From assembly GCA_038087875.1 (NCBI GenBank), contig CM075987.1, positions 16,060,001 through 16,120,000 of the forward strand: 60,000 nucleotides of DNA, given 5' to 3'. Positions 1,468-57,848 of this stretch are shown here, piece by piece. The notes under the pieces are model-generated. The model was not told where the DNA came from and made no database searches. It saw only the letters and a list, made by a program, of their open reading frames with translations. Within the stretch, counting starts at the first letter, position 1, and the number at the start of each line of letters is the position of its first letter. This DNA comes from Malacoraja senta. Taxonomy: Eukaryota. Made by a program: the position numbers and the translations under genes.

Positions 1468-1610
1468 AGTCACAAATGCTGGAATAACTCAGCGGGTCAG
1501 GCAGCATCCCAGGAGAACATGGATAGGTGACATTTCGGGTCGGGACCCTTCTTCAAACTGATTGTGGGTGGGAGCTTGGTAAACTAGGCCCTGCAGTTCC
1601 TTGCTTTTGC
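1468..1610 (-). mobile_element. Short Penelope pseudo-LTR-derived repeat
   Basis: Matches the reverse complement of the 3' segment of the Penelope element at 8520-8650 (GAAGAAGGGTCCCGACCCGAAATGTCACC...GATGCTGCCTGACCCGCTGAG). Confidence 0.65.
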
Positions 1611-2814
1611 TAATAAATGCAGGTAATGTTCAATAGAAAGCACTCAGGGTGACTCAAATCCTGGTGCATCCAGTTAAGATGCACTATCATTCTAATATAG
1701 GAACATTTCAACAGAGTTGATTTAAAGTTTCTGGTCGGTATGGTTCAGCAACATGGGCGGTGAGAGTTAAAACAAAATCACATGCTGATTCAATTCTAAA
1801 GCAGGGCAGTGATCTGATATCCCAAAGCTGTCTTGACAGACCTGCTGTGTAAGTCCAGTGTTCGCTATTGTTCTTGACATTCTTCATAGAGACTAAAGGA
1901 TCTGTTCTTGTGCCATCACCTTGTTGCAGTGCGACCTCTGATTTTATTTCCCTGGCTCCCCCGCGGCTCTGATTCCCTGGAGGAGTTCATTACTGAGGTT
2001 GCCCCCAAAAGATCCCTGGTGTGCAGTTAGCTGCAAGCATTATGCCTGAAAAAGCAACAATAATTCTCCCTCTCGCCAACCACCTCCTCCTAGCGTGGTG
2101 CAGCTACAGTCTTCAGTTGCCATGGTGACAGCCGGCTAAAAGGGTTGTGACACATTTCCATGTCACCTCCTGACGAGATGCAAACGCCAAGTTGAACAAA
2201 GCAACATCAAGGCCGCCGTCTACTCCTGGAGGTTTCCGAGCAATATCTGACAGAAGGAATAAATTACCAAGAACTCTCTTTACATTTGACCTATGGTTCG
2301 GTTTGATTGAAGACATCTTGATTACATCCAAGTCCTGCAGCTTTCAGTCATGGGAAGCAGAGGGTGGAAGGCAGATAAGGTCTTTGGTTAACAAGGTTTA
2401 AAAAAAAATCAAAAGATTGTTAATTCCTGACGTGATAGGAACCACATGTGTTTATACTGCAAGCAGAAAACTATCATTGCTTTTAAGCCAATGTTTGTGG
2501 AAACAAATTCTCAGAGCCCATCGACTGAAACGGGTCTGGATTTTGCTCTTCTTTAGTTCCCCGTGGCAGTGAGACTTGCACAGATAGTTGTCAGCTGGGA
2601 TCTTGTTCCTGAGACAGGTCGTAGGGTCAAGTCCCATCTCAGAAATGTGAGCACTATACCTGGGAGTCTGATGAAAGGCTATCAACATGAGGCATTAACT
2701 ATTGTTTCACTCTGACATCAACACATATATTGTCTGCTGTGTGGGTACTTATAATATTTTCTGTTTCTGCTTGACCTTTCCACGATCCCCATGGCATTTT
2801 GCTGTTGCACAGTA

Positions 2815-3060
2815 GAGGTTGCTCATGCGAAACGCAAAGTGCTGGAGGAAGTCTGCGGGTCAGGAAGCATGTGTGGAGGGAATGGACAGACGACATTTCA
2901 AATCGGGATTCTTCTTCAGACTGATTGTCCAGATCTGATTTACAGACCCGACCCAAAACATTGTCAGTCCATTCCCTCCACGGATGCTGCCTGACCCACT
3001 GACATCCTCCGGCACTTTGTGTATGATCAGGATTCCATTATCTGCAGTCTCTTGTGTCTT
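2815..3060. mobile_element. Decayed inverted pair of Penelope pLTR-derived short repeats
   Basis: Minus-strand half at about 2825-2925 and plus-strand half at about 2940-3055 are imperfect reverse complements. Confidence 0.55.
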
Positions 3061-3659
3061 CATTTTAAAACTGAACACAGTCCAATCTTACTCAAACAAT
3101 TTGATTTGATCCAGCCACTTTGGAAGCCACCTCGGATCCGAACTAAACGTCAATATGTTTTCATGGTAGAACACTGACAGACTTAATGCATTTTTAACCC
3201 AGAGCAGAGTACTGGAATTCCAAGTATCCACCAAGATGAATAATGTATAGAATTTCCATCGAGCAGGACAGCGTGGAGGCACTGTCACGCAGTTATTTAA
3301 TCTTTTCTTGGAGAAGTGATCCACATTTTTTTGGCTATTTGGATTGCCAGAGGTTTTAATAAACTTTGGGTGTAAGATCAAATGCTTAAGCCTTGAGTGC
3401 CTGCCAGTTTCAAGTCAAGTCAAGTGAGTTTATTGTCATGTGTCCCTGGTAGGACAGTTTCAAATTCCCTTCAAGGATTCTGGAGAATGTTGGCAATTTG
3501 GGGGCATTTTGGTATCATTTTCCGCACCAAGCTTACTGTTTTTCACAAAAAAATGTACACTTGCAATTTTAATAAGTTTCTCTGAGACTTTTTTCCCCCA
3601 ATTGTCAGCTGTTAGTTTCCTCCAATTTTGATTTTTTGCAATTCCCTGATTTCTTTTAA

Positions 3660-3920
3660 TCCACCATTGGTGGACATCCTCCCAGCCATTCACAGTACCA
3701 GGCTTTGGAATTCTGTCCGGTACTCTGCACCGCAACATCTCACCAAAGGTTATTTGGCAGCAACTCTCAGACTCGCAACTAGCATCTAGAAGGACAAGAG
3801 CAGCATCTATACGAGGACACCCATATCCAGCCCACACGCCATCATTGGCTGGGTGTGTCCCGCCAGTCCCAAAATCGTGGAAATGCCTAATTAAGAGCAC
3901 TGCCAGAGCTCTTTCTCCAC
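3660..3920 (+). mobile_element. Ancient LINE 3' remnant, clade uncertain
   Basis: Resembles, from memory, a common old elasmobranch LINE 3' segment (TAGAAGGACAAGAGCAGCA...); possibly related pieces near 43530-43790 and 58050-58340. Confidence 0.3.
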
Positions 3921-3929
3921 AGGGTCAAC

Positions 3930-4641: not shown

Positions 4642-4889
4642 AACCGTCATGGCCGTATGGGTGGCAATAATGCTATGTGTAAAGAGAAAGGGAAGAGCTA
4701 ACACTACTTGGTCTAACACTAACAATAATGTGCGGTCAAGGCAAGAATGTGATAATAGTTTCACTTTTTTTTAAATTTTGTAAATATTTTTTATTATTGG
4801 GGAAAAAAATTTGAGGAACTCTCACCAAATGTTTTGAAAGGCAAATGTCTTCGAATTAGTCTGGAGGCTTTTGGATCAGTAACAGTCGG

Positions 4890-5100
4890 TGATGCACAAG
4901 AAACTGCAGGTGCCGAAATCTTGAGCGAAAGACAAAGTGCTGAAACTCAGCAGGTGAAGCTGCATCGATGGAGGGAGTGGACAGACAATGGTTCAGGTCT
5001 GTACTGTCCTTCACACTGATGGAGAAGTGGGGGAGAAACCTGGAAAAGAGAAGTGGGGCTGTGGTAAAGCCCAGCAAGTAATAGGTGGATACAGGTGAGG
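4890..5100 (-). mobile_element. Decayed Penelope pLTR-derived fragment
   Basis: AACTGCAGGTGCCGAAATC...AAACTCAG...GCATCGATGGAGGGAG matches the reverse complement of the shared pLTR 3' segment. Confidence 0.5.
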
Positions 5101-5464
5101 GATTGGAATACTTCATTGTCACATGTAACCAGGCACAGTGACATTCTTTGCTGCATACCCAATGTATAGGGGGGTTGCACGTAAGGTCATCGGGTCAACA
5201 GGTCAAAGGGCGTGACGCAAGGAGTAGCTCAATCCTTCTGGAGTACACGGCAGCTTCCGGCATGCACTAGTAACACGGGAAACACATACGTTCTTACCTG
5301 TTAGAAACCAGCAAAATCTTCAATTTCTGCGCTGTAAAATATTGTGGAAATATGGGGTGGCCGTGAGAGAAAATCACCAAAATCATTGCTGCTCACTGAC
5401 TTGCGAAAGACCAGCGTGCCAGCCGATTGAGAGTCACCCTCCAGTCTGAAGCCGAGCACCAAGG

Positions 5465-6864: not shown

Positions 6865-6959
6865 AGGTAGACAAAAGTGCTGGAGAAACTCAGCAGGTGA
6901 GACAGCATCTATTGAGCGAAGGAAATAGGTAATGTTTCGGGCCGAAACCCTTCTTCAGG
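6865..6959 (-). mobile_element. Short Penelope pLTR derivative with about 13-bp TSD
   Basis: Flanked by CTGGTTCAGT(A/G)AT at 6852-6864 and 6960-6972; 5' end lies at the CTGAAGA motif. Confidence 0.75.
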
Positions 6960-7059
6960 CTGGTTCAGTGATGTTCTCTGGGGCAGGAAAGCTGTCACAT
7001 TACACAAAAATGCTGGAGAAACTCAGCGGGTGCAGCAGCATCTATGGAGCGAAGGAAAT

Positions 7060-7095
7060 AGGTAACGTTTCGGGCCGAAACCCTTCTTCAGACTG
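7060..7095 (-). ncRNA. Minimal hammerhead ribozyme-like motif
   Basis: Reverse complement reads CAGT-CTGAAGA-A-GGGT-TTCG-GCCC-GAAA-CG-TT-ACCT. Confidence 0.6.
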
Positions 7096-7207
7096 ATAGG
7101 GGGTGGGGAGAAGAAAGGAAAAAAGGAAAAGGAGGAGGAGGAGCCCGAGGGTTGGGGGAGGGGAGGAGACAACCAGATGGCTGATGAAGGGGAGGGGACA
7201 GCCAGGG

Positions 7208-7898
7208 CTAGCAGAATTGGGAGAATTCAACGTTCAGGCCACCAGGGTGTAGACTGCCCAAGCGGAATATGAGGTGCATTTCCTCCAATTTACGGTGTTG
7301 CTCGCTGTGGCCATGGAGGAGACCCAGGACAGAGAGGTCAGATACGGAATGGGAGGGGGAGTTGAAGTGCTGAGCCACCGGGAGTTCAGGTTGGTTATTG
7401 CGGACCGACCGGAGGTGTTCGGCGAAACGATCGCCAAGCCTCCGCTTGGTCTCACCGATGTAGATCAGCTGGCATCTAGAGCAGCGAATGCAATAGATGA
7501 GGTTGGAGGAGATGCAGGTGAACCTCTGTCGCACCTGGAACGACTGCTTGGGTCCTGGAATGGAGTGGAGGGGGGAAGTGAAGGGACAAGTGTTGCATCT
7601 CTTGCGGTTGCAAGGGAAAGTACCAGGGGAGGGGGTGGTATGGGAGGGAAGGGAAGAATTGACAAGGGAGTTACGGAGGGAGCGGTCTTTGCAGAAAGCA
7701 GACATAGGGGGAGATGGGAAGATGTGGCGAGTGGTGGGGTCACGTTGGAGGTGGCGAAACTGACGGAGGATCACTTGTTGTATGTGACGGCTGGTGGGGT
7801 GAAAGGTGAGGACTAGGGGGACTCTGCCTTTGTTGTGAGTGGGGGGATGGGGAGAGAGAGCAGTGTTGCGGGGTATGGCAGAGACCCTGGTGCGAGCC
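7208..7898 (-). pseudogene. Penelope ORF C-terminal fragment: thumb/linker, CNRKRCNTC Cys motif and GIY-YIG endonuclease
   Basis: RVPLVLTFHP...PGTFPCNRKRCNTC...NLIYCIRCSRCQLIYIGETKRRLGDRFAEH...VAQHF...RKLEEMHLIFRLGSLHPGGLN; RT domain absent. Confidence 0.9.
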
Positions 7899-8405
7899 TC
7901 TCCCCCTATGTCTGCTTTCCGCAAAGACCGCTCCCTCCGTAACTCCCTTGTCAATTCTTCCCTTCCCTCCCATACCACCCCCTCCCCTGGTACTTTCCCT
8001 TGCAACCGCAAGAGATGCAACACTTGTCCCTTCACTTCCCCCCTCCACTCCATTCCAGGACCCAAGCAGTCGTTCCAGGTGCGACAGAGGTTCACCTGCA
8101 TCTCCTCCAACCTCATCTATTGCATTCGCTGCTCTAGATGCCAGCTGATCTACATCGGTGAGACCAAGCGGAGGCTTGGCGATCGTTTCGCCGAACACCT
8201 CCGGTCGGTCCGCAATAACCAACCTGAACTCCCGGTGGCTCAGCACTTCAACTCCCCCTCCCATTCCGTATCTGACCTCTCTGTCCTGGGTCTCCTCCAT
8301 GGCCACAGCGAGCAACACCGTAAATTGGAGGAAATGCACCTCATATTCCGCTTGGGCAGTCTACACCCTGGTGGCCTGAACGTTGAATTCTCCCAATTCT
8401 GCTAG
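7899..8405 (+). pseudogene. Penelope GIY-YIG endonuclease fragment (inverted duplicate)
   Basis: Same peptide as the minus-strand copy except AFRKDR versus AFCKDR. Confidence 0.9.
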
Positions 8406-8517
8406 CCCTGGCTGTCCCCTCCCCTTCATCAGCCATCTGGTTGTCTCCTCCCCTCCCCCAACCCTCGGGCTCCTCCTCCTCCTTTTCCTTTTTTCCTTTC
8501 TTCTCCCCACCCCCTAT

Positions 8518-8553
8518 CAGTCTGAAGAAGGGTTTCGGCCCGAAACGTTACCT
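8518..8553 (+). ncRNA. Minimal hammerhead ribozyme-like motif in Penelope pLTR
   Basis: CTGAAGA core (8522-8528), extra A, stem II GGGT/GCCC with TTCG loop, GAAA (8542-8545), palindromic ACGT minimal stem III; hammerheads are an established feature of Penelope pLTRs. Confidence 0.6.
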
Positions 8554-9399
8554 ATTTCCTTCGCTCCATAGATGCTGCTGCACCCGCTGAGTTTCTCCAG
8601 CATTTTTGTGTACCTTCGATTTTCCAGCATCTGCAGTTCCTTCTTTAACAACAAGCTGTCACATTAATCTGATTTGATCATAATGTGGCTCCACCTTCAG
8701 AAATGTCTTAGCCAGCCACCCAGATCCAGGGCAGTTAGATACCCAGGGTAACAAATGCCCATCTTAACAGTCACACCCACATCCAGAGGCTAAATAACAA
8801 AAATGACAATGCTTTTTACCCCCTCCACTTTTCAGTGGAAATCCTCTTAACAAAATATGCTTCAAGTGCCTATTTGAAATCACATCCATCATTATTCAGT
8901 AACCATGGAAATAAGACACTTGCTATGATCTAATGCAATTACATTCTATGCTTCCCATTTTACCAGGCAATACACAAAATGATTAAACTCCACAGCCTTA
9001 CATCGGGAGCACCAGGATTGGGATCACATGCTTATGACACATTAGCCATGCAATTAGCCACATCGATTTTCTGAATTGGCTACAGATGGCTGATTGTTAA
9101 AGGGTTTAGACTAATCCAATGCTGCCTGCGATGCCTTCCATTGTCTTAATAGTTACTGGCACTCACTGTTTGCCATAACACGAAGCCTGAGAAGGGTCTC
9201 GACCTGAAACGGCACCCATTCCTTCTCTCCAGAGATGCTGCCTGCCCTGCTGAGTTCAGAGGGTACTGATGTTCCCGACGCGGTGTTCTGCATTACTGAG
9301 AGTTATTCTTCTCGGGGGCTTCCTCGAGATTGAGGGTGACTTGCTGATGAGGTGAACGTGGAAACCGGAGACTCTATCGTGGATGGGAATGGGAACGGA

Positions 9400-9760
9400 T
9401 ATCTCCCGGAGCAGGTGGCTGGGCCTCAACAAGGCCAGCAGCAGAATCAAGGTAGACAAAAGTGCTGGAGAAACTCAACGGGTGCAGCAGCATCTATGGA
9501 GCGAAGGAAATAGGCAATGTTTCGGCCCGAAATGTTGCCTATTTCCTTCGCTCCATAGATGCTGCTGCACCCGCTGAGTTTCTCCAGCACTTTTGTCTAC
9601 CTTCGATTTTCCAGCATCTGCAGTTCCTTCTTAAACAGCAGAATCAAGGACCAGCCTCACCACGGTCACTCCCTCTTCACTTCTCTCCCATCAGGCAAGA
9701 GGTACAGAAGTTTGAAAACGCATATCTCCAGATTCAGGGACAGTTTCTTCCCAGCTATTA
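9400..9760 (+). mobile_element. Rex1/Babar LINE ORF 3' fragment interrupted by a Penelope-derived hairpin
   Basis: Peptide RIKDQPHHGHSLFTSLPSGKRYRSLKTHISRFRDSFFP, homologous to 44928-45305. Confidence 0.7.
9453..9635. mobile_element. Palindromic Penelope pLTR-derived mini-element with 14-bp TSD
   Basis: About 75-bp arms fold back at TTTCGGCCCGAAA; TSD CAGCAGAATCAAGG at 9439-9452 and 9636-9649. Confidence 0.85.
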
Positions 9761-10103
9761 TGGAGAAGGGTGTCGACCAGAAACATCACCCATTCCTTCT
9801 CTCCAGAGATGCTGCCTGTCCCGCTGAGTTTACTCCGGCATTTAGTGTCTATCTTCGGTTTAAACCAGCATCTGCAGTTCCTTCCCACACATGAATAATG
9901 ATGATTGGCCTTGGAACCAATAAATATTTGGGCAGGATATGGTTGAATGAGAGAACGACTACATGTACTCTAGTGAGAGAACAGCTCCTGGTATAGAACT
10001 AAGTCACACTTCCAGGGCTATTTGAATGCCCATGAGTGCCCCAAATTAATTTATTAGAGCGGGTCAGAGGATTAGATTACACCTATGAACCGTGTCCATG
10101 CAA

Positions 10104-10197
10104 GTCTGAAGAAGGGTTTCGGCCCGAAACGTTACCTATTTCCTTCGCTCCATAGATGCTGCTGCACCCGCTGAGTTTCTCCAGCATTTTTATGTAC
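10104..10197 (+). mobile_element. Short Penelope pLTR derivative with intact hammerhead-like motif
   Basis: Nearly identical to 8520-8613. Confidence 0.8.
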
Positions 10198-15782: not shown

Positions 15783-15930
15783 CGAACAAAATGTGTCGGA
15801 GGAACTGCAGATGCTGGTTTACTCCGAAGATAGACACAAAATGCTGGTGAAACCATCAGAAGAAGGGTCTCGACCCGAAACATCACCATTCCTTCTGTGT
15901 TCCGCTCAGTTACTCGAGTACTATGTGTCT
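15783..15930. mobile_element. Inverted Penelope pLTR-derived mini-element with 12-bp TSD
   Basis: TSD ATTAACAGAAGT at 15771-15782 and 15931-15942. Confidence 0.7.
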
Positions 15931-16460
15931 ATTAACAGAAGTACAAGTTTAGGGTCTTGATGTGGACTTCATTAAGCCAAGAGCAGGCCAATGGAGATTT
16001 TTAAATAGCCCTCTCTCAGAAAGCCTGGACAATTTGCAAAAGACATGTCTGAGCACTATGGTTTAAATTAATCTTGGGAATACTTCATCCCGATGCAGGA
16101 GATCAAGCAGCCAACACTGCTGCTGTAATTCCATTCTCTGCCTCACAGTGGGCATTTGTGCCTTTCATGTCAAAGCAGCATTGTCAGCCCAGAGCGATCT
16201 GAGGGGCCAAGGCCTACAGTGTGAAACTGGACCAAAAGAATCAAATCTGCAATTGGACAGGAGGCCAGGTTGTTCTTCAGCTCTTCATGACCCCCCTCCC
16301 AATGTTTAAATGTCAGATTGAGCTGACTATTCACACTCCTAGCACAGAAAGTGACCAGCACATGTCATTGCCTGGGCATATAACCCCTCTACCCACCCCC
16401 CATTTAAAATTATTGAATGGTGCTATGAATTTGACTATAAAGGAAGCATCACTGATTGTA

Positions 16461-16550
16461 TCACGAAGGGTCTCGACCCGAAACGTCACCTTTTCCTTTG
16501 CTCCATAGATGCTGCCTCACCCGGTGAGTTTCTCCAGCATTTTTATCTAC
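16461..16550 (+). mobile_element. Short Penelope pLTR derivative with 14-bp TSD
   Basis: TSD CATCACTGATTGTA at 16447-16460 and 16551-16564; GAAGGGTCTCGACCCGAAACGTCACC motif. Confidence 0.8.
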
Positions 16551-22590: not shown

Positions 22591-23177
22591 TTCCATCTTG
22601 GGACAAGTTATAATAAAGGTGTAGATAAATGTAAGTTTTTGCCCAAAGTTGGAGAGTGTCAGATTAACAGGTGATGACTCTGAACCTTGTATCTGCGCAT
22701 GTACAATATTGAGGAGCTGAATGCCTTGCAGCTCCTTACACAACCCGTTCAGCCACGTCTCCCAGAAATGCCTTGGGCTGTTCTAAGTAAACTGAGCTGC
22801 TTTGCGGTACGGTGATTGTTGGAGCCAAGTGTCTTGTGCTTTGGTGCAGCAACTTCAGCGTTGACAGTACAAACCATCATCTTCTAATTCACAACCCTGC
22901 GTTGTGCAATGAAAACAACCATGGTGCATGTTTCTCCTCTGAATTTTCCCGTTGCTATGTTGAAATCAAAACATGTTTGACCAACCTCTGCTTCAACTTG
23001 CCCTTCCTTGGAACTCAGCTACTCATCAGCCCAAGGATTTTTCCTCCCATCTGAAAGGTTTTGAAATGCAAGCTGGGTGTTGGCGAGCAGCTGTGTTTAC
23101 TCCACTGTGGTTTTGTTCAGTGCAGCTCGCCTTCTGCCCACTAGATGGAGTCCTTGACTCAATCCCAAACCAGCAAA

Positions 23178-23862
23178 GGTAGACAAAAATGCTGGAGAAA
23201 CTCAGCGGGTGAGGCAGCATCTATGGGGCGAAGGAATAGGTGGCGTTTCGGGTCGAGACCCATCTTCAGACTGATGTGGGGGCGGGAAGAAGAAAGGAAG
23301 AGGCTGGGAGACAGTAGGCTGTGGGAGAGCTGGGAAGGAGGGAGAGAGCAAGGACTACCTGAAATTGGAGATGTCAATATTCATACTGCTGGAGTGTAAA
23401 CTACCCAAGCGAAATATGAGGTGCTGATCCTCCAATTTGCGGTGGGACTCAATCTGGCCATGGAGGAGGCCCAGGGCAGAAAGGTCGGATTCGGAATGGG
23501 AGGGCGAGTTGAAGTGCTGAGCCACCGGGAGATCAATGCTAACTGGTTATTGCGAACTGTGCGGTGGTGTTGGGCGAAGTGATCGCCAAGCGTGCGCTTG
23601 GTCTCACCGATGCAGGGCAGTTGACACCTAGAGCGGTGGATGCAATAGATGAGGTTGGAGGAGGTGCAGGTGAACCTCTGCCTCACCTGGAAAGACTGCT
23701 TGGGTCCTTGGATGGAGTCGAGGGGGGAGGTAAAGCGTCAAGTGTAGCATTTCCTGCGGTTGCACGGGAAAGTACCAGAGGAGGGGGTGGTTTGGGTGGG
23801 AAGGGACGAATTGACCAAGGAGTTACGGAGGGAGCGGTCTCTGCGGAACCACTGCTCCACTG
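23178..23862 (-). mobile_element. Penelope-like element 3' fragment (GIY-YIG and pLTR) with 13-bp TSD
   Basis: RQRFTCTSSNLIYCIHRSRCQLPCIGETKR; TSD CCAAACCAGCAAA at 23165-23177 and 23863-23875. Confidence 0.88.
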
Positions 23863-24409: not shown

Positions 24410-24800
24410 ACTTTCGCTTGGGTAGTTTATACCCCATGAACAACACTTCATATTTTGCATGGGTAGTTTACACCCCATTGGCCCAGCGCAAATTCGAGGA
24501 ACAGCACCTCATATTTCGCTTGGATAGTTTACACCCTAGCGGTATGAACATTGACCTCTAACTTCAGATAGCCCGTGCTTTCTCTCTCCATCCCCTTCCC
24601 CGTTCTCCCACTAGTCTTACTGCTTCCGACTACACTCTATCTTTGTACCGCCCCCTCCCCTGACATCAGTTTGAAGAAGGGTCTCGACCCGAAACATCGC
24701 CCATTCCTTCTCTCCAGAGATGCTGCCTGTCCCGCTGAGTTACTCCAGCATTTTGTGTCTACTTTTGATTTAAACCAGCATCTGCAGTTCTTTCTTACAC
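24410..24800 (+). mobile_element. Penelope-like 3' fragment with triplicated 5' junction
   Basis: GAGGAACAGCACCTCATATTTCGCTTGG (EEQHLIFRL) followed by the pLTR segment with GAAGAAGGGTCTCGACCCGAAAC. Confidence 0.8.
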
Positions 24801-25944
24801 AGACTTTAACTACCTCCAGCTCGCGTCAATGGGCAGGGTGGGCAAATGCCAGTGTTACAGGCTGCACCAATGCACAGGCATTGAGAGACTGCAAACAAGC
24901 CATGTAATGACTGGCAGCCACCAGCTCAGGAGAATCTACCTACGGCCCTGGAGTCTATGCTTCCATATAACTAACTTTCCTCTGGAAACTGTTCATTGGA
25001 TATCTCACTGTAGATTAGATTGACATCTCACTGATGATTTTGCAAGTGCTCAACTCTTGCTTCACTGCAACATCCATTCATCAGTGGATGCGAAACGTCA
25101 CCTATTCCTTCTCTCCAGAGATGCTGCATGACCCGCTGAGTTGCTCCAGCATTTTGTGTCCATCTTAGATGATCATCTGGAGGACATGTTTCCCCTCACA
25201 ATTTCCCTTCAGGGACAAATAAAGTTCTATCGTATTGTACAGGATACTGAGTTGGATGATCAGCCATGATCATATTGAATGGCGGTGCAGGCTCGAAGGG
25301 CCAAATGGCCTACACCTGCACCTATTTTCTATGTTTCTATGTATGTGTTGGGTGGGACAAAACTGCTGTTTTGGCAGAAGGTCTCAGCTGGGCATTTGTC
25401 TTCTGGAAGGTGGCAAGGAGCATCTATCTCACCACACTGGGTTGGCAGGTAGCAGCCTTCTGATCAAGCCTAGGCCTGTAGAGCTCAGGTAACAATTTTG
25501 TCATTCCACTGCCGATACATATGACAATTTAGACACAAAGGGAAACTGTTGGAAGTGTAGGAAGGAACTGCAGATGCTGGTTTGCACCGAAGATAGACAC
25601 AAAATGCTGGAGCAACTCAGCAGGTCAGGCAGCATCTCTGGAGAAAAGGAATAGGTGATGTTTCTGGTCAAGACCCTTCTCCAGACCAATGTGATGGAAT
25701 TTAGTTTTAGTTTAGTTTAGTTTATTGTCACGTGAATCGAGGTACAGTGAAAAGCTTTTTTTGTTGCATGCTATCCAGTCAACAGAAAGACTATACATGA
25801 TAGTATAAGCCGGCAATCAAGCTGGCCAGTGTACAGATACAGGATAAAGGGAATAACATAGTGCAAGGTACGGTCTGATTAAAGATAGTACCTCTCCAAT
25901 GAGGTAGATGGTAGGTCAGGACCGCTCACTAATTGGTAATAGGA

Positions 25945-34409: not shown

Positions 34410-35019
34410 TTACTCGGTGGGTCAGGCCGCATCTCTGGAGGACATGGATGGGCGACATTTCCCAAGAGTTTGAAGAGTCAGAGTCTGAAGATGGATCCCA
34501 ACCCAAAACGTCGCCTATCCATGTCATCCAAAGGTGCTGCCAGACCCGCAACCACTCCAGCCCTTTGTGTTCTACGCAAACTTCCAGCATTTGCAGTTCC
34601 TTGTGGCTCTGTAATTCTGAACATATTTTATTATTTCCTGTTTAAACTTAAGGAGGAAGCGAACAAGTTGTGGATTCTCCCACAAAGCATCTGTGCAAAC
34701 CTGTTCACCCGCAGATATGTGCGACAAATCAGAACACAGGGAATGGAGGAATCCAACAGAAACAGACTAACCTAATTTATGAAAAATACCAATAAGAATT
34801 CAAGAAGATGAGGATAGGATAAACATGGGAGTGACTGGAATAAATGAGCAAGAACAAAATAATCAGGTGTGAAGATAGAATGCATATACGCATTGATGAA
34901 ATTATAAACAATGATGGCTGCAGCTTAACATGATTCGTAATACAAACAAACCATGAAGCAAAACCGATAACATTCAAAATAAATTAAAGACAAAATAACA
35001 ACCTTGCGCCAATATTGCG

Positions 35020-36278: not shown

Positions 36279-36367
36279 GAAGGGTTTCGGCCAGAAACGT
36301 TGCCTTTTTCCTTCGCTCCATAGATGCTGCCGCACCAGCTGAGTTTCTCCAGCACTTTTGTCTACCT
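36279..36367 (+). mobile_element. Short Penelope pLTR derivative with 11-bp TSD
   Basis: TSD GAAATCTTTTC at 36268-36278 and 36368-36378. Confidence 0.8.
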
Positions 36368-49070: not shown

Positions 49071-52000
49071 TCTTCCAGACATGACACTGGGAGGTGGTTC
49101 GGCATTCCCTTTCCTAAACCTTGCCAACTCTCCCAGTTGCAAACCTATCTCTTGAATCAAGTTTTTTGATCACCTGCATATATAGCTTACACACATGCAT
49201 GCAAAAAAACGTGCACGCAAGCAAACATGCAAAACCGGTTCTCCCAGCAGATTACAGTCAAAGATCTGAAGTAAAATTTGGGTTAACGAGAGTCAAGAGT
49301 CAAGAGAGTTTTATTGTCATGTGTCCCAGATACGACAATTAAATTCTTATTGTCAAATTCTTAGTCAAAGATCTGAAGTAAAATTTTGGTTAACACACTC
49401 TCACTCTGGGCAGAAACCTTTAGGGAATAACTCTGTGTTAAAGGTGAAACATCAGCACATGCATACAGTTGCTTTAGAATGATTTAAAACAACAAAACAC
49501 CATCAGGTTATTATAGAAGTTACAAGAAACTTCTAATGTTGGAATCTGAAGCAAAAAAAACCAAAGTAGACAGAGGAAACTAGCAGGTCAGGCAGCCTAT
49601 GTGGAGGAAAATAGATCATCCCTTTCCCTCCATAGATGCTGCCAGGCTCACTGAGTACCACCATTAATTTGCTTTTTGCAAAGGATTATAGAAGTTTACC
49701 TCATAAAAGGTGCTGTTTAACCTATGAGTCCATGCCAAATGATAACTGGAAATGTATTCATGGCATTGTTTCTGTGATTCTTGCAATGGAGATCTTACTG
49801 TAATTCCATGGAAAGTGGTCTTCAAAAACAAGAACGAGGTACAGCATCAACAATAAATCCTTTGATCTCTCCGCGTTTACCTAAAGGCTCCAAAGCAGTG
49901 ATCAGGTATTGATACCTTTCTCTTCCAATGCTCATTCCTTGAAGAACAAACCCTGGAAGGATTTGCAGGCTGCTCAACACCAATTATACTTCCCATTGAA
50001 TGGCAACATCTTGATGCAATCGGTAAGGTGGTTACTCCTGTGGAGAAGGATTTTATGGAAGTCACACAATTTTTCCAATGAGAAGCATTCTTCACCAGAA
50101 CAAAATGCAAATATTCTGCCAAATATTAATCTACAATTAAACTTTGTTGCTTCAAACTCCACAACACAGATCTGTTATTTTGAGCCACAATCTAAAGTCA
50201 CTGGTATTAAAACAATTATGTGAGTTGTAGTTTCACTAGTCAGCTTGCTCTCTGAACTTTCATTGTTTTCTCCAGCAAATGTTCTCCAGCTAACTCTTTC
50301 TGATAAAATAAAAATAAATTCCAGTGTATCTTCTCGACAGTGATCATGTGGTTTTGTGTATTCTTTTGTAAAAATCCATCCAATTTTCGTCCCACACATG
50401 GAGTATTGTGTTCAGTTTTGGTCAACACGTTATATGAAAGATGCCATTAAGCTGGGAACACTGCACAAGAGAGAAGATTTGCAAACAGAGAAGATTTGCG
50501 AGGATGTTGCCAGGACTCAAAGGCCAGAACTATAGTGAAAGGAGAGGTGGGGGTGGGACAAAGTCTAGCAACCAAGCCTCCCTCACCCATAGATGGGCAC
50601 AAAGAGCTGGAGTAACTCAGCGGGTCTGGAGAAATCTCTGGAGAAAAAAGATGCGAGACGTTTCGGGTCTGGACCCTTCTTCAGTGTCTATCCTCAGTAT
50701 ATACCAGTACCTACAGTTCCTTTCTACACATCCCCACACCTATATCCACCTCTCACTAACCAGTTGAGCCAGGTGCAGGAAAATGAGCACAGCATTAATG
50801 GGGCATCTTGGTCAACGTGTATGAAATGAGCTGCAGCTTTTGCTTTGTGCTGAGTGACTCTAAATGAGCTTCTCCCATCTCCTCATTTCCCGTCTCCTCC
50901 CTCTGCTGGGTGCTGTAAACTGCTTTTCACAACTGTTGCATGCAGTTGATGCCTCTTTGTGCAGTGGCTCAGAAAAACAACCTGCGCAAGTGAAGCTTAG
51001 TCATTCAGGAACATTGGTGCGTGTTGTTTCAAAGCATTTTAAATGGGGGTGGTTGGCATGCAATTTGAAAAGATGCTTGAGATTTCCCTGCAAAGGAGGT
51101 GAATGGTAAAGGGGAAACATTTCAATACGAGCTTTGAAAGTACGAGGAAAAAGCAGATGGTTTTGATTTCTGTGTTTTTCTTTGGATACGCAAGTTTATT
51201 CAAATACACAATCAACTTTATTCTGTCTAATACGTGTCCTTTCCCCACAGTGCATGAGAGCTCTTGCGATGGTTTAGATTTATTATTGCCACGCATTACG
51301 AGGTACAGTGAAAGGTTTTGTTTTGCATGCTATCCAAACAAATCAGATATACCGTACATGAATACAACCAAGTCAATCTCGAATACAATCGTTAAAGCTA
51401 AGAGGAAGATACAGAGTGCAGAATATAGTTCTCAGCATTGTAGCACATCAGTTCCATTGACAATTACCAATGTCCTCAATGGGGTTGAGGTGAATCAGAC
51501 AGTGCCCGAGTTTATGGAAGGACCATTCAGAAGCCTGATAATGGAGCTCGAGAGCAGGCATAGATTGTCTTCTATGGATCATATAGTGGTGGGAAAGGCA
51601 GGTAATTGTTAATATAAAATGTCATTGTGCTCTTTGTTCCCCAGACAACATATCAGGTGAGGAACAGGTTGTAGAATAGGCATTTTATATGGATCCTTAT
51701 AAAAGAAAGGAAAAGAGAGAGAGAATGGTCACCATTTGTAATAAGCAGAAATCATTTCATTCTGAGTGTTAGGTTTGCACTCTGTTATCAAGGGGATTTT
51801 TCATTTACATTTTGTATTAGTCCACGTGGGTTTTATTTTCCAGTCTAACTACACTACACCTGTTATGACTGCACTGTGGTAATAGTGATATCGAAAGCTG
51901 CTTTGGGCACCACATTCTAAATTTATGCAATTTTTTTTCCCCTCCGCATTCTTCTGAAGAAATTATTATTTATGTCAGTTTTATTTTCCATTTGTAAGGG

Positions 52001-55330: not shown

Positions 55331-56139
55331 TGGTGGAGGTTGTGCAAAGCTTGGCAAGTGATAGGAGAATGCAGGTGAAAGGGTCGATTGGCAGATGGGT
55401 GGAGTAAGTGTCAAATGTTAGAGGTAAAAAGGAGACATGAGGTTGTCAGAAAAAATCGAAGATGAGTGAAATGTAGAGCTGGAGGGAGAGATACAGGTGG
55501 AAGGATATTGGTAGAAATAAGGGAGATAAAAGGAAAATATTTGACACAGGGATGGGAGATGAGTGTATAGAGGAGCGGAAAGGAGCAGGGTGACTAGTGT
55601 GGCGGGTGAAATGTGCATGTACTGGAGTAGGGTGAAATTGGAAAATTCAAAGATAGCGACAGAGACTGGGTGGTAATAAATTGAGTCCACAAAAAATGAC
55701 TGCAGGTTATGGAATCTGATAAAAATGGAAGAATGGGGGCCAGATAAGGGAAGGATGGGCAGATTACTTTTCCATACCATGCTGGACTGGCATTGCTGTA
55801 ACAAGAGCAGCATAGTACAAGGATCAAGCACAAAGAATTGGACAGATTCTATTTAAACAATGTCATGTTTCATAGAAATAATGTGACTCATCCTAATAGC
55901 ACTGGGTTGTGGTGTTGAGCTGAGATTGCTTTTGAAACAAGATAGTTTACTAAAGAACCAAATTGCCACACCAATGCTTTTAACGAGCCAAAGAAATATT
56001 GATTTTGAAAACTGAATACAGTGGTAATTTCACTTTAATGGTACGCTAGATTGATAACTCTGATAAAGCTGTGTCATTAAGATAAAAACTGCCATCTCTG
56101 CTCAGTTATTACTGACAAACTAGCCTGGTTCTATCAAAA

Positions 56140-56705
56140 GTAATACAGCACAAAAATTGGCCCATCTGTCCAACTTGTTCCTACCGAGCAAGATCCCTGC
56201 CTAAGCTAGTCCTGATTGCCCCATATCCCTCTAAACCTTTCCTATTTATGTACGAGTCCACATTTCTTTTAAATGGTGTTATTGTACCTGCTTCAACCAT
56301 TTCTTCCTACAGCTCATTTCATAAATGTAAAACCCTCAGTGACAAAGTGGTCTCTCGCATTCCAATTAAATCTTTTCCCTCTCACTTTAAACCTTTGTCC
56401 TCTAATTCTTGATTCCCAACCTTTGGGGGGGAAAAAACTATGTGCATTCACCCTATCTATGCCCCACATGATATTATACATCTCTATCTGGCCACTCCTC
56501 AGTCTTCATCGCTTCAAGCAATAATGTCTTAGCTTGCACAACCTCCTCCTATAGCTCAGACCCTTTTCCTCGTGAATCCTTTCTGCACCTTTTCCAAATT
56601 AATGACATCTTTCGATAGTAGCTTGACCCCACTCAACAGAATACTCCAGTTGCAACCTCTCCAATGTTTTATACATCTGCAACATAACATCCCAACCTCT
56701 GTACT
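56140..56705 (-). mobile_element. Decayed CR1/HER1-like LINE 3' fragment
   Basis: Similar to 44045-44530. Confidence 0.65.
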
Positions 56706-56884
56706 GCACTGTTGGAAATTACATCTTTGAGCTGAGACATTAAAGCAAAGGATGGTTTGTATCTCTGGTGATCATAAAATATCCTATAATTTGATCTGAA
56801 TTATTTTTATACATTATGAAGAGCACTATATATACAGTGCTTGCTGTACACTATATATCAAATAGAACAGCTCACTTTATCTAT

Positions 56885-57190
56885 TATTACTTACTTAGAC
56901 TTAGTTCCTCCCGCACTGTTGAGTGCATTTGGGCAGCAAGCTTTCGCCATTCTGTTCGGTCACGTGCGACGTCTTCCACCCTCGATAGGTTTGCGCCCCG
57001 GGCTTCCAAATCCTTCTGGAATGTTCACCTCCTTGTGAGTTTTGGTCGGCCACTTTTCCTTCTTCCGTCAGGTTGCCATGTCATTGCTATCATAGTTGCA
57101 CGTTCTGGTGATATTCTGAGTACGTGTCCTGCAAATTTCATCCTGTGTACCTCTATGTCCTGGCTGAGAGGCTTTCTTGCAGTTTCCCGG
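56885..57190 (-). mobile_element. RTE-clade LINE 3' fragment
   Basis: LSQDIEVHRMKFAGHVLRISPERATMIAMTWQPDGRRKSGRPK is a typical RTE ORF C-terminus; (TAAG)n tail. Confidence 0.75.
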
Positions 57191-57724
57191 TAGATACAGA
57201 ATATACAGAATAGTATTCCATAGAGTGAACATTTTGCCAATTACATATATCACATCTTGAATAAATTGTTAAACGGAAGGGCGTGCCTTCAATATGCGAC
57301 AGGGGAAAGAGCATATTATACACATTATAAATAATGATATATGCTTTATGCATCGTTATATAATACATAACTACATCTTGCATATCTTCTTAATGAGTAT
57401 TTTGCGTTTCAAATCACACATATTCTGCTCAAGCTTCACTTCTGGGATTTGTGGCATTGAAATCTGTGATCGGGTTGCTGTTTTTGGAGCTGTCGTTTCA
57501 TAAATTCTATCCACATGCCCTGTGATTGCTTGTGGTCCTCAATTTAGGAGAGGGAACAAAAGAGAAAGAAACGCTTCTTAAACAGAATGTAATTTTCCTG
57601 CGATGAATCATGGTGTCCTGTGCAATAATGTGCATATGTTATTACAATGTTGTTATATCTGAGGCTGAGAATAAGATCCCTCATTAAAAAAAAAAGAATG
57701 CTGGCTGGTCCACTTTAACTTATC

Positions 57725-57848
57725 GAAGGGTCTCGACCCGAAACGTTGCCTATTTCCTTCGCTCCATAGATGCTGCCTCACCCGCTGAGTTTCTCCAGCA
57801 TTTTTGTCTACCTTCGATTTTCCAGCATCTGCAGTTCCTTCTTAAACA
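57725..57848 (+). mobile_element. Short Penelope pLTR derivative including the 3' extension
   Basis: GAAGGGTCTCGACCCGAAACGTTGCC...CTGCAGTTCCTTCTTAAACA. Confidence 0.8.

What the first reader, a model, noticed from the sequence alone, without database searches (positions are those of the whole stretch)
1528..57752. About 20 dispersed Penelope-derived mini-elements share a minimal hammerhead-ribozyme motif (retrozyme-like system)
Seen: the motif CTGAAGA-A-[stem II]-GAAA-CG-T(C/T) recurs, intact or decayed, at about 1528(-), 6930(-), 7060(-), 8521(+), 9187, 9764, 10105, 15858, 16465, 23240(-), 24670, 25655(-), 26043(-), 30923, 34484, 36279, 50655(-) and 57725. Stem II varies while keeping its pairing (GGGT-TTCG-GCCC, GGGT-CTCG-ACCC, GGGT-CCCG-ACCC), each with a YYCG tetraloop. 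Established: Penelope pLTRs carry minimal type I hammerheads with a palindromic stem III thought to act as dimers. Inference: this genome has amplified 90-200 bp non-coding, TSD-flanked elements built around the ribozyme motif and mobilised by a GIY-YIG Penelope partner. Caveats: stem I is only about 2 bp, there is an extra A after the core, and many stubs lack the CTGA, so activity is uncertain.
Basis: partly seen in the sequence, partly recalled or inferred. Interest (0 to 1): 0.75.

Follow-up and report, generated by a model that had tools for sequence, protein, structure and literature searches.

The report
Penelope-element stubs with minimal hammerheads
The repeated motif is the already described minimal hammerhead of Penelope-like retrotransposons, and most copies in this window are short, discrete insertion by-products of a very active Penelope family, not a new kind of ribozyme system.

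Summary
All 18 listed positions carry a copy. The 18-nt core has 19 window hits against 0.06 expected, and 72,927 exact hits in the 1.94-Gb genome.

The repeat belongs to a Penelope-like element (PLE):
- Long copies place the C-terminus of an RT + GIY-YIG ORF about 120 nt upstream of the motif.
- One full-length copy shows pseudo-LTRs 3,987 nt apart.
- 3' ends fall into two classes about 33 nt apart, the PLE "tail".
- Head-to-head inverted copies are common.

It matches no Rfam hammerhead model. Stem II shows no compensatory change. Helix I is 2+2 bp. Insertions do not pile up at the predicted cut site.

The possibly new detail is that about 40-65% of copies are discrete TSD-flanked units of 93-96 or 120-130 nt. 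Their 5' ends sit within a few nucleotides of the CUGA box. This fits run-off cDNA from the internal RT start to a fixed RNA 5' end.

"Retrozyme-like" is not met in the window. Rare 44-51-nt tandem arrays exist elsewhere in the genome.

Verdict: a new member of a known kind, of modest interest.

The parts
1467..1613 (-). Composite insertion. An inverted tail fragment is joined to a 5'-truncated copy with a decayed hammerhead (TTGAAGAA, GAAATG). It is flanked by an 11-nt TSD, ACCTGCATTTA, at 1456-1466 and 1614-1624.
2832..3053 (.). Old head-to-head pair: 2832-2928 on the minus strand and 2947-3053 on the plus strand, 72-76% like the queries.
4878..5057 (-). Old long-type copy (66% identity) with a pyrimidine-rich stretch and CATCAGT upstream of a decayed motif.
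6865..6959 (-). Discrete 95-nt short unit. It starts at C+CTGAAGAA and ends at GTCTACCT. The 13-nt TSD has 1 mismatch (6852-6864 and 6960-6972). G16.2 is mutated (GAAACAT).
7001..7900 (-). 900-nt 5'-truncated PLE copy forming the left arm of a head-to-head pair. It holds the ORF C-terminus with a GIY-YIG match, a CT-rich 3'UTR, an intact minimal hammerhead (CTGA...GTT at 7064-7091) and a short-form 3' end.
7899..8650 (+). Right arm of the same pair, 100% complementary to the left arm over 714 nt. The ORF end runs 7899-8402 with a GIY-YIG match. The intact minimal hammerhead is at 8522-8549, with the predicted cut between 8549 and 8550. The 3' end is the tail form. The whole complex 7001-8650 is flanked by a 12-nt TSD, AAGCTGTCACAT, at 6989-7000 and 8653-8664.
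9184..9256 (+). Short unit with its 5' end at CCTGAGAA. The 3' part is missing.
9438..9640 (.). Head-to-head palindrome joined inside stem II. The arms 9449-9525 and 9527-9603 are 96% complementary. The plus arm has the tail-form 3' end.
9761..9884 (+). Short unit with tail. The CUGA box is lost (GGAGAA) and C11.1 is A.
10103..10197 (+). 95-nt short unit starting at AGTCTGAAGAA. It is 99% identical to the ORF-bearing young copy and has an intact minimal hammerhead.
15792..15932 (.). Inverted tail fragment (15792-15859, minus strand) abutting a short unit (15856-15932, plus strand) that starts at ATCAGAAGAA.
16461..16550 (+). 90-nt short unit beginning TCACGAAGGGT, without a CUGA box. It is flanked by a 14-nt TSD, CATCACTGATTGTA.
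23176..23848 (-). Long 5'-truncated copy of a second subfamily, 80% identical. ORF residues 1086-1246 lie upstream. The motif has U16.1 changed to C (GAAACGCC).
24484..24818 (+). Long copy of a third subfamily, with an ORF C-terminal remnant at 24487-24558. The motif has T at position 3 and GAAACAT. The 3' end is the tail form.
25553..25686 (-). Short unit with tail and a decayed core (CTGGAGAA, ACCAGAAACA).
25950..26396 (-). Unit starting at the AGT 5' terminus (25950-26076), joined directly to a mid-ORF segment (26084-26396, ORF residues 622-728). This looks like a template-switch chimera.
30919..31100 (+). Old copy that starts at ATCAGT and runs past the tail into the 5'UTR and start of the ORF (equivalent to L021 1685-1886).
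34482..34602 (+). Old short unit with tail, starting at AGTCTGAAGAT. An inverted fragment lies just upstream at 34412-34461.
36279..36367 (+). 89-nt short unit beginning GAAGGGT, without a CUGA box. It is flanked by an 11-nt TSD, GAAATCTTTTC.
50598..50733 (.). Short unit on the minus strand (50598-50684) that starts at CTGAAGAA and keeps all core features. An inverted tail fragment (50684-50733) abuts it.
57725..57848 (+). Short unit with tail, beginning (T)CGAAGGGT, without a CUGA box.

Best explanation
**What it is (shown).** The repeats are insertion products of several subfamilies of an endonuclease-bearing Penelope-like retrotransposon (PLE). The family is very abundant in this 1.94-Gb genome, and its youngest copies differ by 0-2% and keep long open frames, which suggests recent activity. 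The shared motif is the minimal type I hammerhead (min-HHR) already described in PLE pseudo-LTRs. It reads CUGAAGA, one unpaired A, a 4-bp helix II with a YYCG loop, GAAA, a loop-less palindromic ACGU in place of helix III, then U-H.

**Layout of the unit (shown).** ORF (RT then GIY-YIG), about 115 nt of CT-rich 3'UTR ending in YCAG, the min-HHR, about 65 nt of conserved sequence, the first 3' end, about 33 nt of optional 'tail', the second 3' end, then the 5'UTR and the next ORF.

**How the short units arise (inferred).**
1. The PLE reverse transcriptase starts internally at either of the two sites, as shown in vitro for an Anolis PLE.
2. It copies back to a discrete RNA 5' end lying 0-14 nt upstream of helix II, mostly within 3 nt of C3.
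3. This yields TSD-flanked units of 93-96 or 120-130 nt.
4. Priming on both target strands gives the head-to-head pairs. Jumps from that same 5' end to other templates give the chimeras and the small tandem arrays.

**Role of the hammerhead (inferred).** It is most likely a weak, dimer- or protein-assisted processing signal of PLE transcripts. It is carried passively by the short units and is not needed for their insertion.
For: **Penelope identity**
- GIY-YIG matches lie in the two ORFs directly upstream of the motifs at 7064-7091(-) and 8522-8549(+).
- tblastn places the ORF C-terminus upstream of three subfamilies' motifs.
- The full-length copy L021 has one 1247-aa open frame with RVT_1 at residues 734-903 and GIY-YIG at 1151-1184. 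Its motifs lie 3,987 nt apart inside a 100% direct repeat.
- The RT-EN part finds 991 homologues, from animal sources where a source names the organism. Many carry both RVT_1 and GIY-YIG.

**Tail signature**
- 3' ends are bimodal: 41 loci at +78..+98, 32 non-self loci at +113..+134, and none at +99..+112.
- Contigs of four runs break at the same two places, L021 1784-1786 and 1819.
- This matches the optional 30-40 bp tail between two RT start sites (PMC11167929 main text; PMC8557442 passages).

**Inverted copies**
- A 714-nt perfect inverted repeat sits inside one 12-nt TSD.
- 14 of 87 sampled loci have their 5' boundary within -2..+14, in or near helix II. Several of them were read as head-to-head junctions.

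**Minimal-hammerhead features**
- The exact 28-mer CTGAAGAAGGGTTTCGGCCCGAAACGTT occurs 19,101 times.
- A second group, CAGTYTGAAGAAGGGTCYCGACCCGAAA, occurs 17,105 times. All 100 listed matches have C at position 3.

**Discrete 5' end**
- 34 of 87 sampled loci begin at -20..-6 from helix II.
- Nested exact counts fall from 19,101 (from CTGA) to 13,305 (+AGT), 11,325 (+CAGT) and 6,736 (+CCCCTATCAGT). That is a 41% loss over 4 nt, where 4-18% is expected from mutation at 1-5% divergence.
- In 20 unselected 'non-long' loci, 11 have TSDs of 8-21 nt. Zero to six odd nucleotides lie between the TSD and CTGA in eight of them. Two more carry a duplicated GAAGAAGGGT, and one has 24 extra nucleotides.
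- Head-to-head pairs abut as TTCTTCAG-N-CTGAAGAA.

**Hammerhead not needed for insertion**
- Units that lack the CUGA box were still inserted with clean TSDs (16461-16550 and 36279-36367).
- In the Anolis PLE, core mutants did not change insertion (PMC11167929).
Against: - The Pfam matches to RVT_1 and GIY-YIG are below the curated cut-offs: 26.4 vs 29.6 bits, and 19-22 vs 22.6 bits. No source names the homologues 'Penelope'.
- No Rfam hammerhead model matches, even at E <= 10 on 241 nt.
- Helix II shows no two-sided compensatory change. Its pairs 1-3 do not differ between subfamilies.
- The motif is no better conserved than the 60 nt downstream of it.
- Helix I is 2 bp, a 2x2 mismatch, then 2 bp. 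It is missing from units that start at CTGA.
- Predicted folds prefer other pairings. The short-unit RNA has a z-score of 0.45. The dimer MFE of -33.2 kcal/mol is an extended duplex, against -13.3 for the hammerhead-dimer pairing.
- Only 4 of 87 loci begin at +21..+24, next to the predicted cut site at +20, which is no more than background.
- The cause of the discrete 5' end is not shown. It could be a transcription start, an RNA cut or an RT stop.
- G-type units (GTTG) make up 51 of 63 non-long copies but only 17 of 37 long copies, Fisher p = 0.0007. I cross-tabulated this by hand from the listings, with the test. This is not expected if short and long copies came from one template pool in equal proportion.
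Confidence: 0.8

Rival explanations
1. The short units are a self-propagating, non-autonomous lineage (SINE-like or retrozyme-like). They are transcribed from their own copies through an internal promoter and borrow the PLE enzyme.
For: - The units have discrete 5' and 3' ends with TSDs.
- They carry everything downstream of the presumed RNA start, including the RT start region.
- G-type copies are enriched among non-long copies: 51 of 63 against 17 of 37, p = 0.0007.
- Two complex insertions, L064 and L065, have different TSDs and different 3'-end forms. Yet they share a derived 45-nt unit junction (CCTTAGGT) and a shared arm mutation. So a non-coding derivative has served as a template more than once.
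- D. virilis Penelope has a LINE-like internal promoter (PMC2377424, passages read).
- A 2026 preprint argues that animal retrozymes derive from PLE pseudo-LTRs (10.64898/2026.07.22.740005; abstract and part 1 of the Results read).
Against: - Short units exist for each PLE subfamily and mirror their long partner. For example, 10103-10197 is 99% identical to the ORF-bearing copy. This is what by-products of PLE mRNAs would look like.
- Head-to-tail dimers at short-unit spacing are rare: 62 pattern hits against 19,101 motifs.
- No RNA data could be obtained.
- Units that have lost the CUGA box at their 5' end come from different subfamilies, so they arose repeatedly rather than by descent.
Confidence: 0.3
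2. In this family the motif is not, or is no longer, a working ribozyme. It is kept because it overlaps another signal: a core promoter (TCAGTC initiator-like, with an ACGT element about 28 nt downstream) or the protein-binding and RT-recognition region of the PLE RNA.
For: - No Rfam hammerhead model matches.
- Helix I is very weak, and it is absent from units that start at CTGA.
- There is no excess of insertions starting at the predicted cut site: 4 of 87.
- The motif is no more conserved than the next 60 nt.
- Predicted folds disfavour the hammerhead pairing.
- The RNA 5' ends coincide with a YCAGT word that is kept in the long copies of every subfamily I read.
- In the Anolis PLE the RNA region needed for insertion lies just downstream of the hammerhead. 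That hammerhead cleaved only with protein, and no RNA-seq reads ended at its cut site (PMC11167929).
Against: - Six sequence features of the published minimal hammerhead are present together. They include features a promoter would not need: G10.1-C11.1, GAAA, the palindromic ACGU and the U-H.
- Among the least decayed copies the core is essentially invariant: 100 of 100 listed matches have C3, and 19,101 copies are identical over 28 nt.
- The same architecture recurs in PLEs of many phyla (PMC4209133).
- The Anolis motif does cleave, with a C3/G8 rescue (PMC11167929).
- The initiator and DPE resemblance is my own reading of the sequence and is untested.
Confidence: 0.2
3. The motif recurs by chance or through low-complexity sequence.
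For: None.
Against: - The window has 19 hits against 0.06 expected.
- The genome has 72,927 exact hits against 1 for the reversed control.
- Homology extends over 90-900 nt around the motif.
Confidence: 0.01

Closest known systems
Minimal hammerheads (min-HHR) in the pseudo-LTRs of Penelope-like elements (Cervera and de la Pena 2014, PMC4209133; whole text read)
   Same: [quoted passage not shown]
- GAAA, no helix III or loop 3 with a palindromic 15.2-16.2, and a short helix I.
- Location in the flanking repeats of an RT + GIY-YIG element.
- Most genomic copies are single motifs, which the paper ascribes to truncated PLEs.
- Nearby pairs on opposite strands.
   Different: - Helix II here has 4 bp, against the 7-8 bp reported for the Schistosoma families.
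- Helix I is only 2+2 bp.
- The copy number is far higher: 72,927 exact core hits here, against about 4,000-9,000 motifs reported for coelacanth and Xenopus.
- The paper does not describe a fixed 5' end of the single motifs at the CUGA box.
Poseidon PLE of Anolis carolinensis, PAc (Frangieh et al. 2024, PMC11167929; main text read)
   Same: - The hammerhead lies about 90-120 nt upstream of two adjacent internal RT start sites. These define the optional 30-40 bp tail.
- Both target strands are cut and extended, which fits the head-to-head pairs seen here.
- Insertion does not depend on the hammerhead.
   Different: - In PAc the ORF starts at helix II. Here the first ATG lies about 155 nt downstream of helix II, beyond the tail.
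- Nothing was tested biochemically here.
Animal non-LTR retrozymes (de la Pena et al. 2020, PMC7229834, passages read; Li et al. 2026 preprint, abstract and part 1 of the Results read)
   Same: - Non-coding, hammerhead-bearing and probably mobilised by PLEs.
- Elsewhere in this genome there are small tandem arrays of 3.8-8 units, each unit carrying the motif.
   Different: - Retrozymes carry canonical type I hammerheads with loop-loop contacts. They form tandem repeats of about 150-450 bp and give circular RNAs.
- The window copies are minimal hammerheads in dispersed monomers or inverted pairs.
- The arrays found here have 44-51-nt units and are the 5' part of single TSD-flanked insertions.
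Penelope of Drosophila virilis (Schostak et al. 2008, PMC2377424, passages read; Cervera 2014)
   Same: - A splice-acceptor-like pyrimidine tract plus CAG abuts the 5' edge of helix I, as at the end of the 75-bp Penelope intron.
- An initiator-like word lies near the 5' end of the transcripts.
   Different: In D. virilis the mapped transcription start lies 46 bp upstream of the intron, not at the hammerhead. No splicing or start site was mapped here.

Membership tests
PLE minimal hammerhead (min-HHR) | Core box C3-U4-G5-A6-N7-G8-A9 | tested here: met
   CTGAAGA is present in 6 window copies and in 33 of 55 sampled copies. The 28-mer containing it occurs 19,101 times exactly. All 100 listed matches of a second group have C3.
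PLE minimal hammerhead (min-HHR) | One unpaired nucleotide between A9 and G10.1 | tested here: met
   An A (rarely a T) lies between CTGAAGA and GGGT in all copies with a complete box.
PLE minimal hammerhead (min-HHR) | Helix II closed by G10.1-C11.1, kept through compensatory change | tested here: inconclusive
   G-C is at the closing pair in 34 of 55 copies. Pairs 1-3 do not differ between subfamilies. Pair 4 alternates U-A (42) and U.G (11). There is no reliable two-sided change. The C11.1-to-A variant occurs 1,711 times, against 38,024 for C or G. I could not tell whether that variant is a subfamily or decay.
PLE minimal hammerhead (min-HHR) | G12-A13-A14 followed by A15.1, then palindromic 15.2-16.2 without loop 3, then U16.1-H17 | tested here: met
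   The sequence is GAAACGTY. In the 55 copies, GAAA is present in 42, the palindrome in 32, the U in 53 and the H in 54. The losses are mostly at the CpG.
PLE minimal hammerhead (min-HHR) | Helix I of about 4-5 bp | tested here: not met
   Read from the sequence, AUCAGU against ACCUAU gives 2 bp, a 2x2 mismatch, then 2 bp. Units that start at CTGA have no 5' strand at all. The paper reports a 2-bp helix I for D. virilis.
PLE minimal hammerhead (min-HHR) | Lies in the flanking repeats of an RT + GIY-YIG element | tested here: met
   In L021 the motifs are at 1691-1718 and 5678-5705, inside a direct repeat that flanks the ORF. In the window the ORF ends lie upstream of the motifs.
PLE minimal hammerhead (min-HHR) | Self-cleavage, as a dimer or with protein | not testable with these tools
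   There is no biochemistry. The genomic footprint is negative: 4 of 87 loci start next to the cut site.
Rfam hammerhead families | Match to a curated covariance model | tested here: not met
   No match at gathering score in 60 kb. No hammerhead match at E <= 10 in 8440-8680. This is expected for a motif without helix III.
Penelope-like elements (endonuclease-bearing) | A single ORF with a reverse transcriptase followed by a C-terminal GIY-YIG endonuclease | tested here: met
   The L021 ORF has RVT_1 at 734-903 (E 6.6e-6) and GIY-YIG at 1151-1184 (E 1.6e-3), both below Pfam cut-offs. There are 991 homologues, many with both domains precomputed.
Penelope-like elements (endonuclease-bearing) | Partial tandem copies forming pseudo-LTRs | tested here: met
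   L021 1372-1671 equals 5359-5658 at 100% identity, 3,987 nt apart.
Penelope-like elements (endonuclease-bearing) | Optional 30-40 bp tail (two alternative 3' ends) | tested here: met
   3' ends are bimodal, about 33 nt apart, with none in between: 41 and 32 loci. Contig break points are at L021 1784-1786 and 1819 in four runs.
Penelope-like elements (endonuclease-bearing) | An adjacent inverted 5'-truncated copy, and TSDs of variable length | tested here: met
   The head-to-head pair 7001-8650 lies within one 12-nt TSD. TSDs range from 8 to 21 nt.
Animal non-LTR retrozymes | Canonical type I hammerhead with helix I/II loop contacts | tested here: not met
   Helix I has no loop and is 2+2 bp. 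No Rfam type I match.
Animal non-LTR retrozymes | Tandem repeats of about 150-450 bp | tested here: not met
   There are no tandem copies in the window. Genome-wide there are 62 head-to-tail pattern hits. Most are arrays of 44-51-nt units.
Animal non-LTR retrozymes | Expressed as linear and circular RNA | not testable with these tools
   No run on record as RNA was listed, and only contigs were available.

The most novel reading that the evidence does not exclude
The 93-130-nt unit is a self-contained mobile element in its own right. Its RNA begins at the first nucleotides of the hammerhead core. The 'hammerhead' box would double as a start-site or enzyme-recognition signal. Extrapolating from the sample, this minimal unit has multiplied to several hundred thousand copies, with side lineages of 44-51-nt tandem-hammerhead arrays. 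Those arrays would be the smallest retrozyme-like repeats known. If so, PLE hammerheads mark the 5' edge of the template RNA rather than a cleavage site used for mobilisation.
Probability: 0.25. Interest if true: 0.6.

Novelty: new member of a known kind. Interest (0 to 1): 0.35.

Why it matters
The function of the hammerheads carried by Penelope-like elements is still unsettled in the papers I read. They cleave poorly, and insertion does not need them.

This genome offers an unusually large natural data set: tens of thousands of near-identical copies and open reading frames of up to 1,247 aa. In it, the ends of the inserted copies can be read as a record of the template RNA.
- That record shows no use of hammerhead-cleaved RNA.
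- It shows a sharp template 5' end at the hammerhead's own 5' edge.
- It shows two RT start sites that match the in-vitro work on the Anolis element.

This makes the question 'what is the PLE hammerhead for?' testable with simple RNA-end mapping in this species. As a finding about the window itself, it is an ordinary, already described kind of repeat.

Tried and rejected
- **RNA evidence.** The look-up of sequencing runs listed no holder on record as RNA. The four runs laid were contigs only, so RNA starts, ends and strand could not be read. Their depth figures are not copy numbers, and I did not use them as such.
- **A full-length old PLE between the motifs at 30923 and 34484 (3.56 kb apart).** Rejected. 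tblastn with the L021 ORF finds nothing there at E < 1e-3.
- **A subfamily with U at position 3**, seen in 4 window and sample copies. Rejected as decay, since 0 of 100 listed genome matches have it.
- **The C11.1-to-A variant as proof that a dead hammerhead still spreads.** Inconclusive. It has 1,711 copies, against about 1 in 100 listed for the G variant.
- **A preferred 5' truncation near L021 5040-5053** among loci L010-L020. Set aside, because those loci were chosen by their match to the window's own junction.
- **An HDV-like or other 5'-cleaving ribozyme as the cause of the 5' end.** No Rfam match. No convincing pairing on inspection. The fold z-score is 0.45.
- **A canonical intron ending at CAG|T.** The few skipping contigs end at AGT but lack GT..AG ends.
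- **One search was wasted.** Leading N in a pattern is ignored, so it repeated.
- **Literal search of four motif strings in the paper library:** 0 papers.
- **Earlier notes of this scan for this genome:** none.
- **Supplements not opened.** I did not open the supplementary figures of PMC4209133, which hold the per-species motif alignments. Those of the preprint are closed. A cartilaginous-fish or other close match to this exact motif could be in them.

Full report
**1. The observation**

The core GGGTYYCGRCCCGAAACG, with up to 3 mismatches, occurs 19 times in the window against 0.06 expected. The complete CTGAAGA...GAAAC form occurs 6 times against 0.21 expected.

The 18th, at 26043(-), appears with up to 4 substitutions and by BLAST. 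One of the 19 hits, at 35362, belongs to another repeat.

BLAST with six window copies finds 35 loci or fragments in the window. In the window's own genome (1.94 Gb, 6,182 contigs) the degenerate 18-mer occurs 72,927 times exactly, against once for the reversed control.

In an unselected 260 kb (the window plus twenty 10-kb stretches of contig C1) there are 87 non-self loci. Extrapolated, that is several hundred thousand copies genome-wide. This is a rough figure.

**2. What the repeat is**

*In the window.* Positions 7001-7714 and 7899-8612 form a 714-nt, 100% complementary inverted repeat. Each arm holds, in order:
- the end of an ORF with a GIY-YIG match (E 1.7e-4 and 3.1e-4, just under the Pfam cut-off);
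- about 115 nt of CT-rich sequence;
- the motif;
- about 65 nt more.

*In the genome.* The 188-aa ORF fragment gave 108,180 first-look candidates, of which 150 were scored. The listed matches are mostly 98% identical, with open frames of up to 1,247 aa.

*One full-length copy.* I fetched L021 only to read its domain order.
- It has a single 1,247-aa open frame.
- RVT_1 lies at residues 734-903 and GIY-YIG at 1151-1184. Both matches are below the curated cut-offs.
- It carries two copies of the motif 3,987 nt apart, inside a 100% direct repeat.

*Homologues.* The RT-EN part has 991 homologues at E <= 1e-5. They come from animal sources where a source names the organism, and many carry both domains. 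None is named 'Penelope' by its source.

*Other subfamilies.* tblastn puts ORF C-termini upstream of the motifs of two further subfamilies, at 23361-23848(-) and 24487-24558(+).

An RT followed by a GIY-YIG endonuclease in one ORF, plus pseudo-LTRs, defines endonuclease-bearing Penelope-like elements (PMC8557442, passages read).

**3. Two more PLE hallmarks are met**

*Two 3' ends.* Forty-one loci end at +78..+98 from the first G of helix II, and 32 non-self loci end at +113..+134. None ends at +99..+112. Contigs from four public runs, under four organism codes, diverge from L021 at 1784-1786 and at 1819. This is the optional 30-40 bp 'tail'. Frangieh et al. traced it to two adjacent internal RT start sites (PMC11167929, main text read).

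*Inverted copies.* The head-to-head pair 7001-8650 is a single insertion flanked by AAGCTGTCACAT, at 6989-7000 and 8653-8664. Its left arm has a short-form end and its right arm a tail-form end. Further inverted pairs lie at 9438-9640 (joined inside helix II), 2832-3053, 15792-15932, 21556-21747, 28187-28317, 49524-49671 and 50598-50733. The Anolis enzyme cuts and extends both target strands, which would produce exactly such pairs.

**4. The motif against the published minimal hammerhead**

Cervera and de la Pena (PMC4209133, whole text read) defined a min-HHR without helix III. [quoted passage not shown]

The window motif reads CUGAAGA-A-GGGU(YYCG)RCCC-GAAA-CG-U-Y and has all of these.

*Tests that fail or give nothing:*
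- No Rfam hammerhead model matches, either at gathering score or at E <= 10 on 241 nt.
- Among 55 sampled copies, helix II pairs 1-3 are the same G-C in all subfamilies. Departures are one-sided breaks. Only pair 4 alternates, U-A 42 and U.G 11.
- Column identity between distant copies is no higher in the motif than in the next 60 nt. It drops sharply at -12 and at +83. Positions 0-21 of that profile are inflated because they were used to find the copies.
- Helix I is 2 bp, a 2x2 mismatch, then 2 bp.
- The 98-nt unit RNA folds no better than shuffles, z = 0.45.
- A dimer prefers an extended duplex, -33.2 kcal/mol against -13.3 for the hammerhead-dimer pairing.

*In favour of constraint:* the least decayed copies have an essentially invariant core. 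There are 19,101 identical 28-mers. A second group has 17,105 copies, and all 100 listed have C3.

Only 9 of the 55 sampled copies, 4 of them in the window, keep every feature.

**5. The short units are discrete**

*Sample.* 34 of the 87 loci begin at -20..-6, 20 extend further upstream, 14 begin at -2..+14, in or near helix II, and 19 begin at +21 or beyond.

*Genome-wide nested counts for the youngest family:*

| Exact pattern | Count |
|---|---|
| from CTGA | 19,101 |
| + AGT | 13,305 |
| + CAGT | 11,325 |
| + CCCCTATCAGT | 6,736 |

Forty-one percent are lost over the 4 nt before CTGA. Mutation at 1-5% divergence would remove 4-18%.

*Twenty unselected loci.* I fetched the first 20 sites that lacked the long-type upstream sequence.
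- 11 have TSDs of 8-21 nt.
- The gap between the TSD and CTGA is 0 nt in L047, L054 and L056; 1 nt in L050; 4 nt in L046 and L055; and 6 nt in L043 and L061.
- L049 and L058 have a duplicated GAAGAAGGGT. L051 has 24 extra nt.
- The rest are 4 head-to-head junctions, one partial tandem, 3 long or truncated variants and one without a visible TSD.
- Measured from C3, the units are 93-96 nt (short form) or 120-130 nt (tail form).

*Window examples:*
- 6865-6959(-), with a 13-nt TSD carrying 1 mismatch;
- 16461-16550, with a 14-nt TSD;
- 36279-36367, with an 11-nt TSD;
- 10103-10197, with no TSD seen.

*Joins from the same terminus.* The terminus is also where copies join other sequence. It meets a mid-ORF segment at 26084-26396, inverted tails and internal sites in contigs (joints ending at 1685-1689).

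I infer a fixed 5' end of the template RNA, with RT run-off and template switching there. Its cause is not shown.

Every long copy I read has a pyrimidine tract and YCAGT at this point. That resembles both an initiator and a 3' splice site. In D. virilis Penelope the 5'UTR intron ends at helix I (PMC4209133), and the promoter is internal and LINE-like (PMC2377424, passages read).

**6. The hammerhead and mobilisation**

Only 4 of the 87 loci begin at +21..+24, beside the predicted cut at +20. So cDNAs of cleaved RNA have left no visible trace.

Units without a CUGA box were inserted normally (16461-16550, 36279-36367, 57725-57848).

This agrees with the Anolis work. There, core mutants did not change insertion, cleavage needed the protein, and no RNA-seq reads ended at the cut site (PMC11167929).

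**7. By-product or own lineage?**

*For by-products.* Each subfamily has both long and short copies of matching sequence, for example 10103-10197 at 99%.

*For some independence.*
- Among the first 100 sites of the young family, G-type copies (GTTG) are 17 of 37 long and 51 of 63 non-long, Fisher p = 0.0007. I cross-tabulated this by hand from the listings, with the test.
- Non-coding derivatives have been copied repeatedly (section 8).

I leave this open at about 30% for a self-propagating lineage.

**8. Outside the window**

A search for head-to-tail dimers gave only 62 hits. Most are arrays of 44-51-nt units that run from (A)GTCTGAAGAA to 12-22 nt past the cut site.

Five arrays were read (L063-L067).
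- They have 3.8-8 units.
- Each array is the 5' part of one complex insertion: the tandem units and a normal 3' end, with an inverted arm upstream in L064-L067.
- TSDs were seen for L064, L065 and L066.
- L064 and L065 share the unit junction and an arm mutation, but differ in TSD and in both end forms. They are therefore separate insertions of one lineage.

These arrays are the nearest thing to retrozymes in this genome. Even so, their units are far shorter than the 150-450 bp of described animal retrozymes (PMC7229834). The 2026 preprint gives 51-972 bp for family consensus lengths and includes one cartilaginous fish (abstract and part 1 of the Results read).

**9. Verdict**

The Penelope origin and the match to the published minimal hammerhead are supported. 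'Retrozyme-like' and 'covarying stem II' are not.

The kind of element is known, so this is a new member of a known kind. The sharply defined 5' end at the hammerhead's edge, the scale of amplification and the mini-arrays are details I did not find in the papers read, or by a literal motif search. They would be worth an RNA-end experiment.

Noticed in passing
window 52841-53926 (-): An intact 362-aa open frame of a Tc1/mariner-type transposase. Matches are HTH_Tnp_Tc3_2 at E 1.2e-19 and DDE_3 at E 1.1e-11.
   Followed up: no
window 35362-35500 (+); also L038 about 5934 and L057: Another dispersed repeat shares a ...CCAAAGACGTACAGGTTTGTAGGYTAATTGG... stretch. Its start resembles the hammerhead helix II region by chance, and it gave one false hit.
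   Followed up: partly
L063-L067 (G000 contigs C15, C6, C22, C3, C1640): Tandem arrays of 3.8-8 units of 44-45 nt. Each unit is a minimal hammerhead plus about 14 nt. In L064-L067 the array lies inside a complex insertion with an inverted arm, with TSDs seen for L064-L066. Arrays with the same unit junction occur on several contigs.
   Followed up: partly
L021 2421-3077: The N-terminal half of the PLE ORF holds in-frame tandem repeats of 42, 27 and 78 nt. The 608-aa RT-EN query found relatives mostly 700-950 aa long, within a search window of 685-2,183 aa, so these repeats probably account for the long 1,247-aa frame.
   Followed up: no
window 25950-26396 (-): A hammerhead unit is joined at its AGT 5' terminus directly to a mid-ORF segment (residues 622-728, 52% identity). 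This may be a template-switch chimera or an internally deleted element.
   Followed up: partly
L021 5827-6090: Six 33-nt tandem repeats (CCATGTGGAGGGCTGGCGCCTCCTC...) lie just downstream of the full-length PLE copy, in a 222-aa open frame.
   Followed up: no
L021 1372-2400, laid with runs X1, X2, X5, X19: Contigs from four differently coded organisms hold the short-unit region at 90% likeness or more. The G-type and GTCTACC variants are the majority in all four, at 83-98% and 60-96%. The A-type ORF-bearing copy in the window therefore looks like a younger variant.
   Followed up: partly
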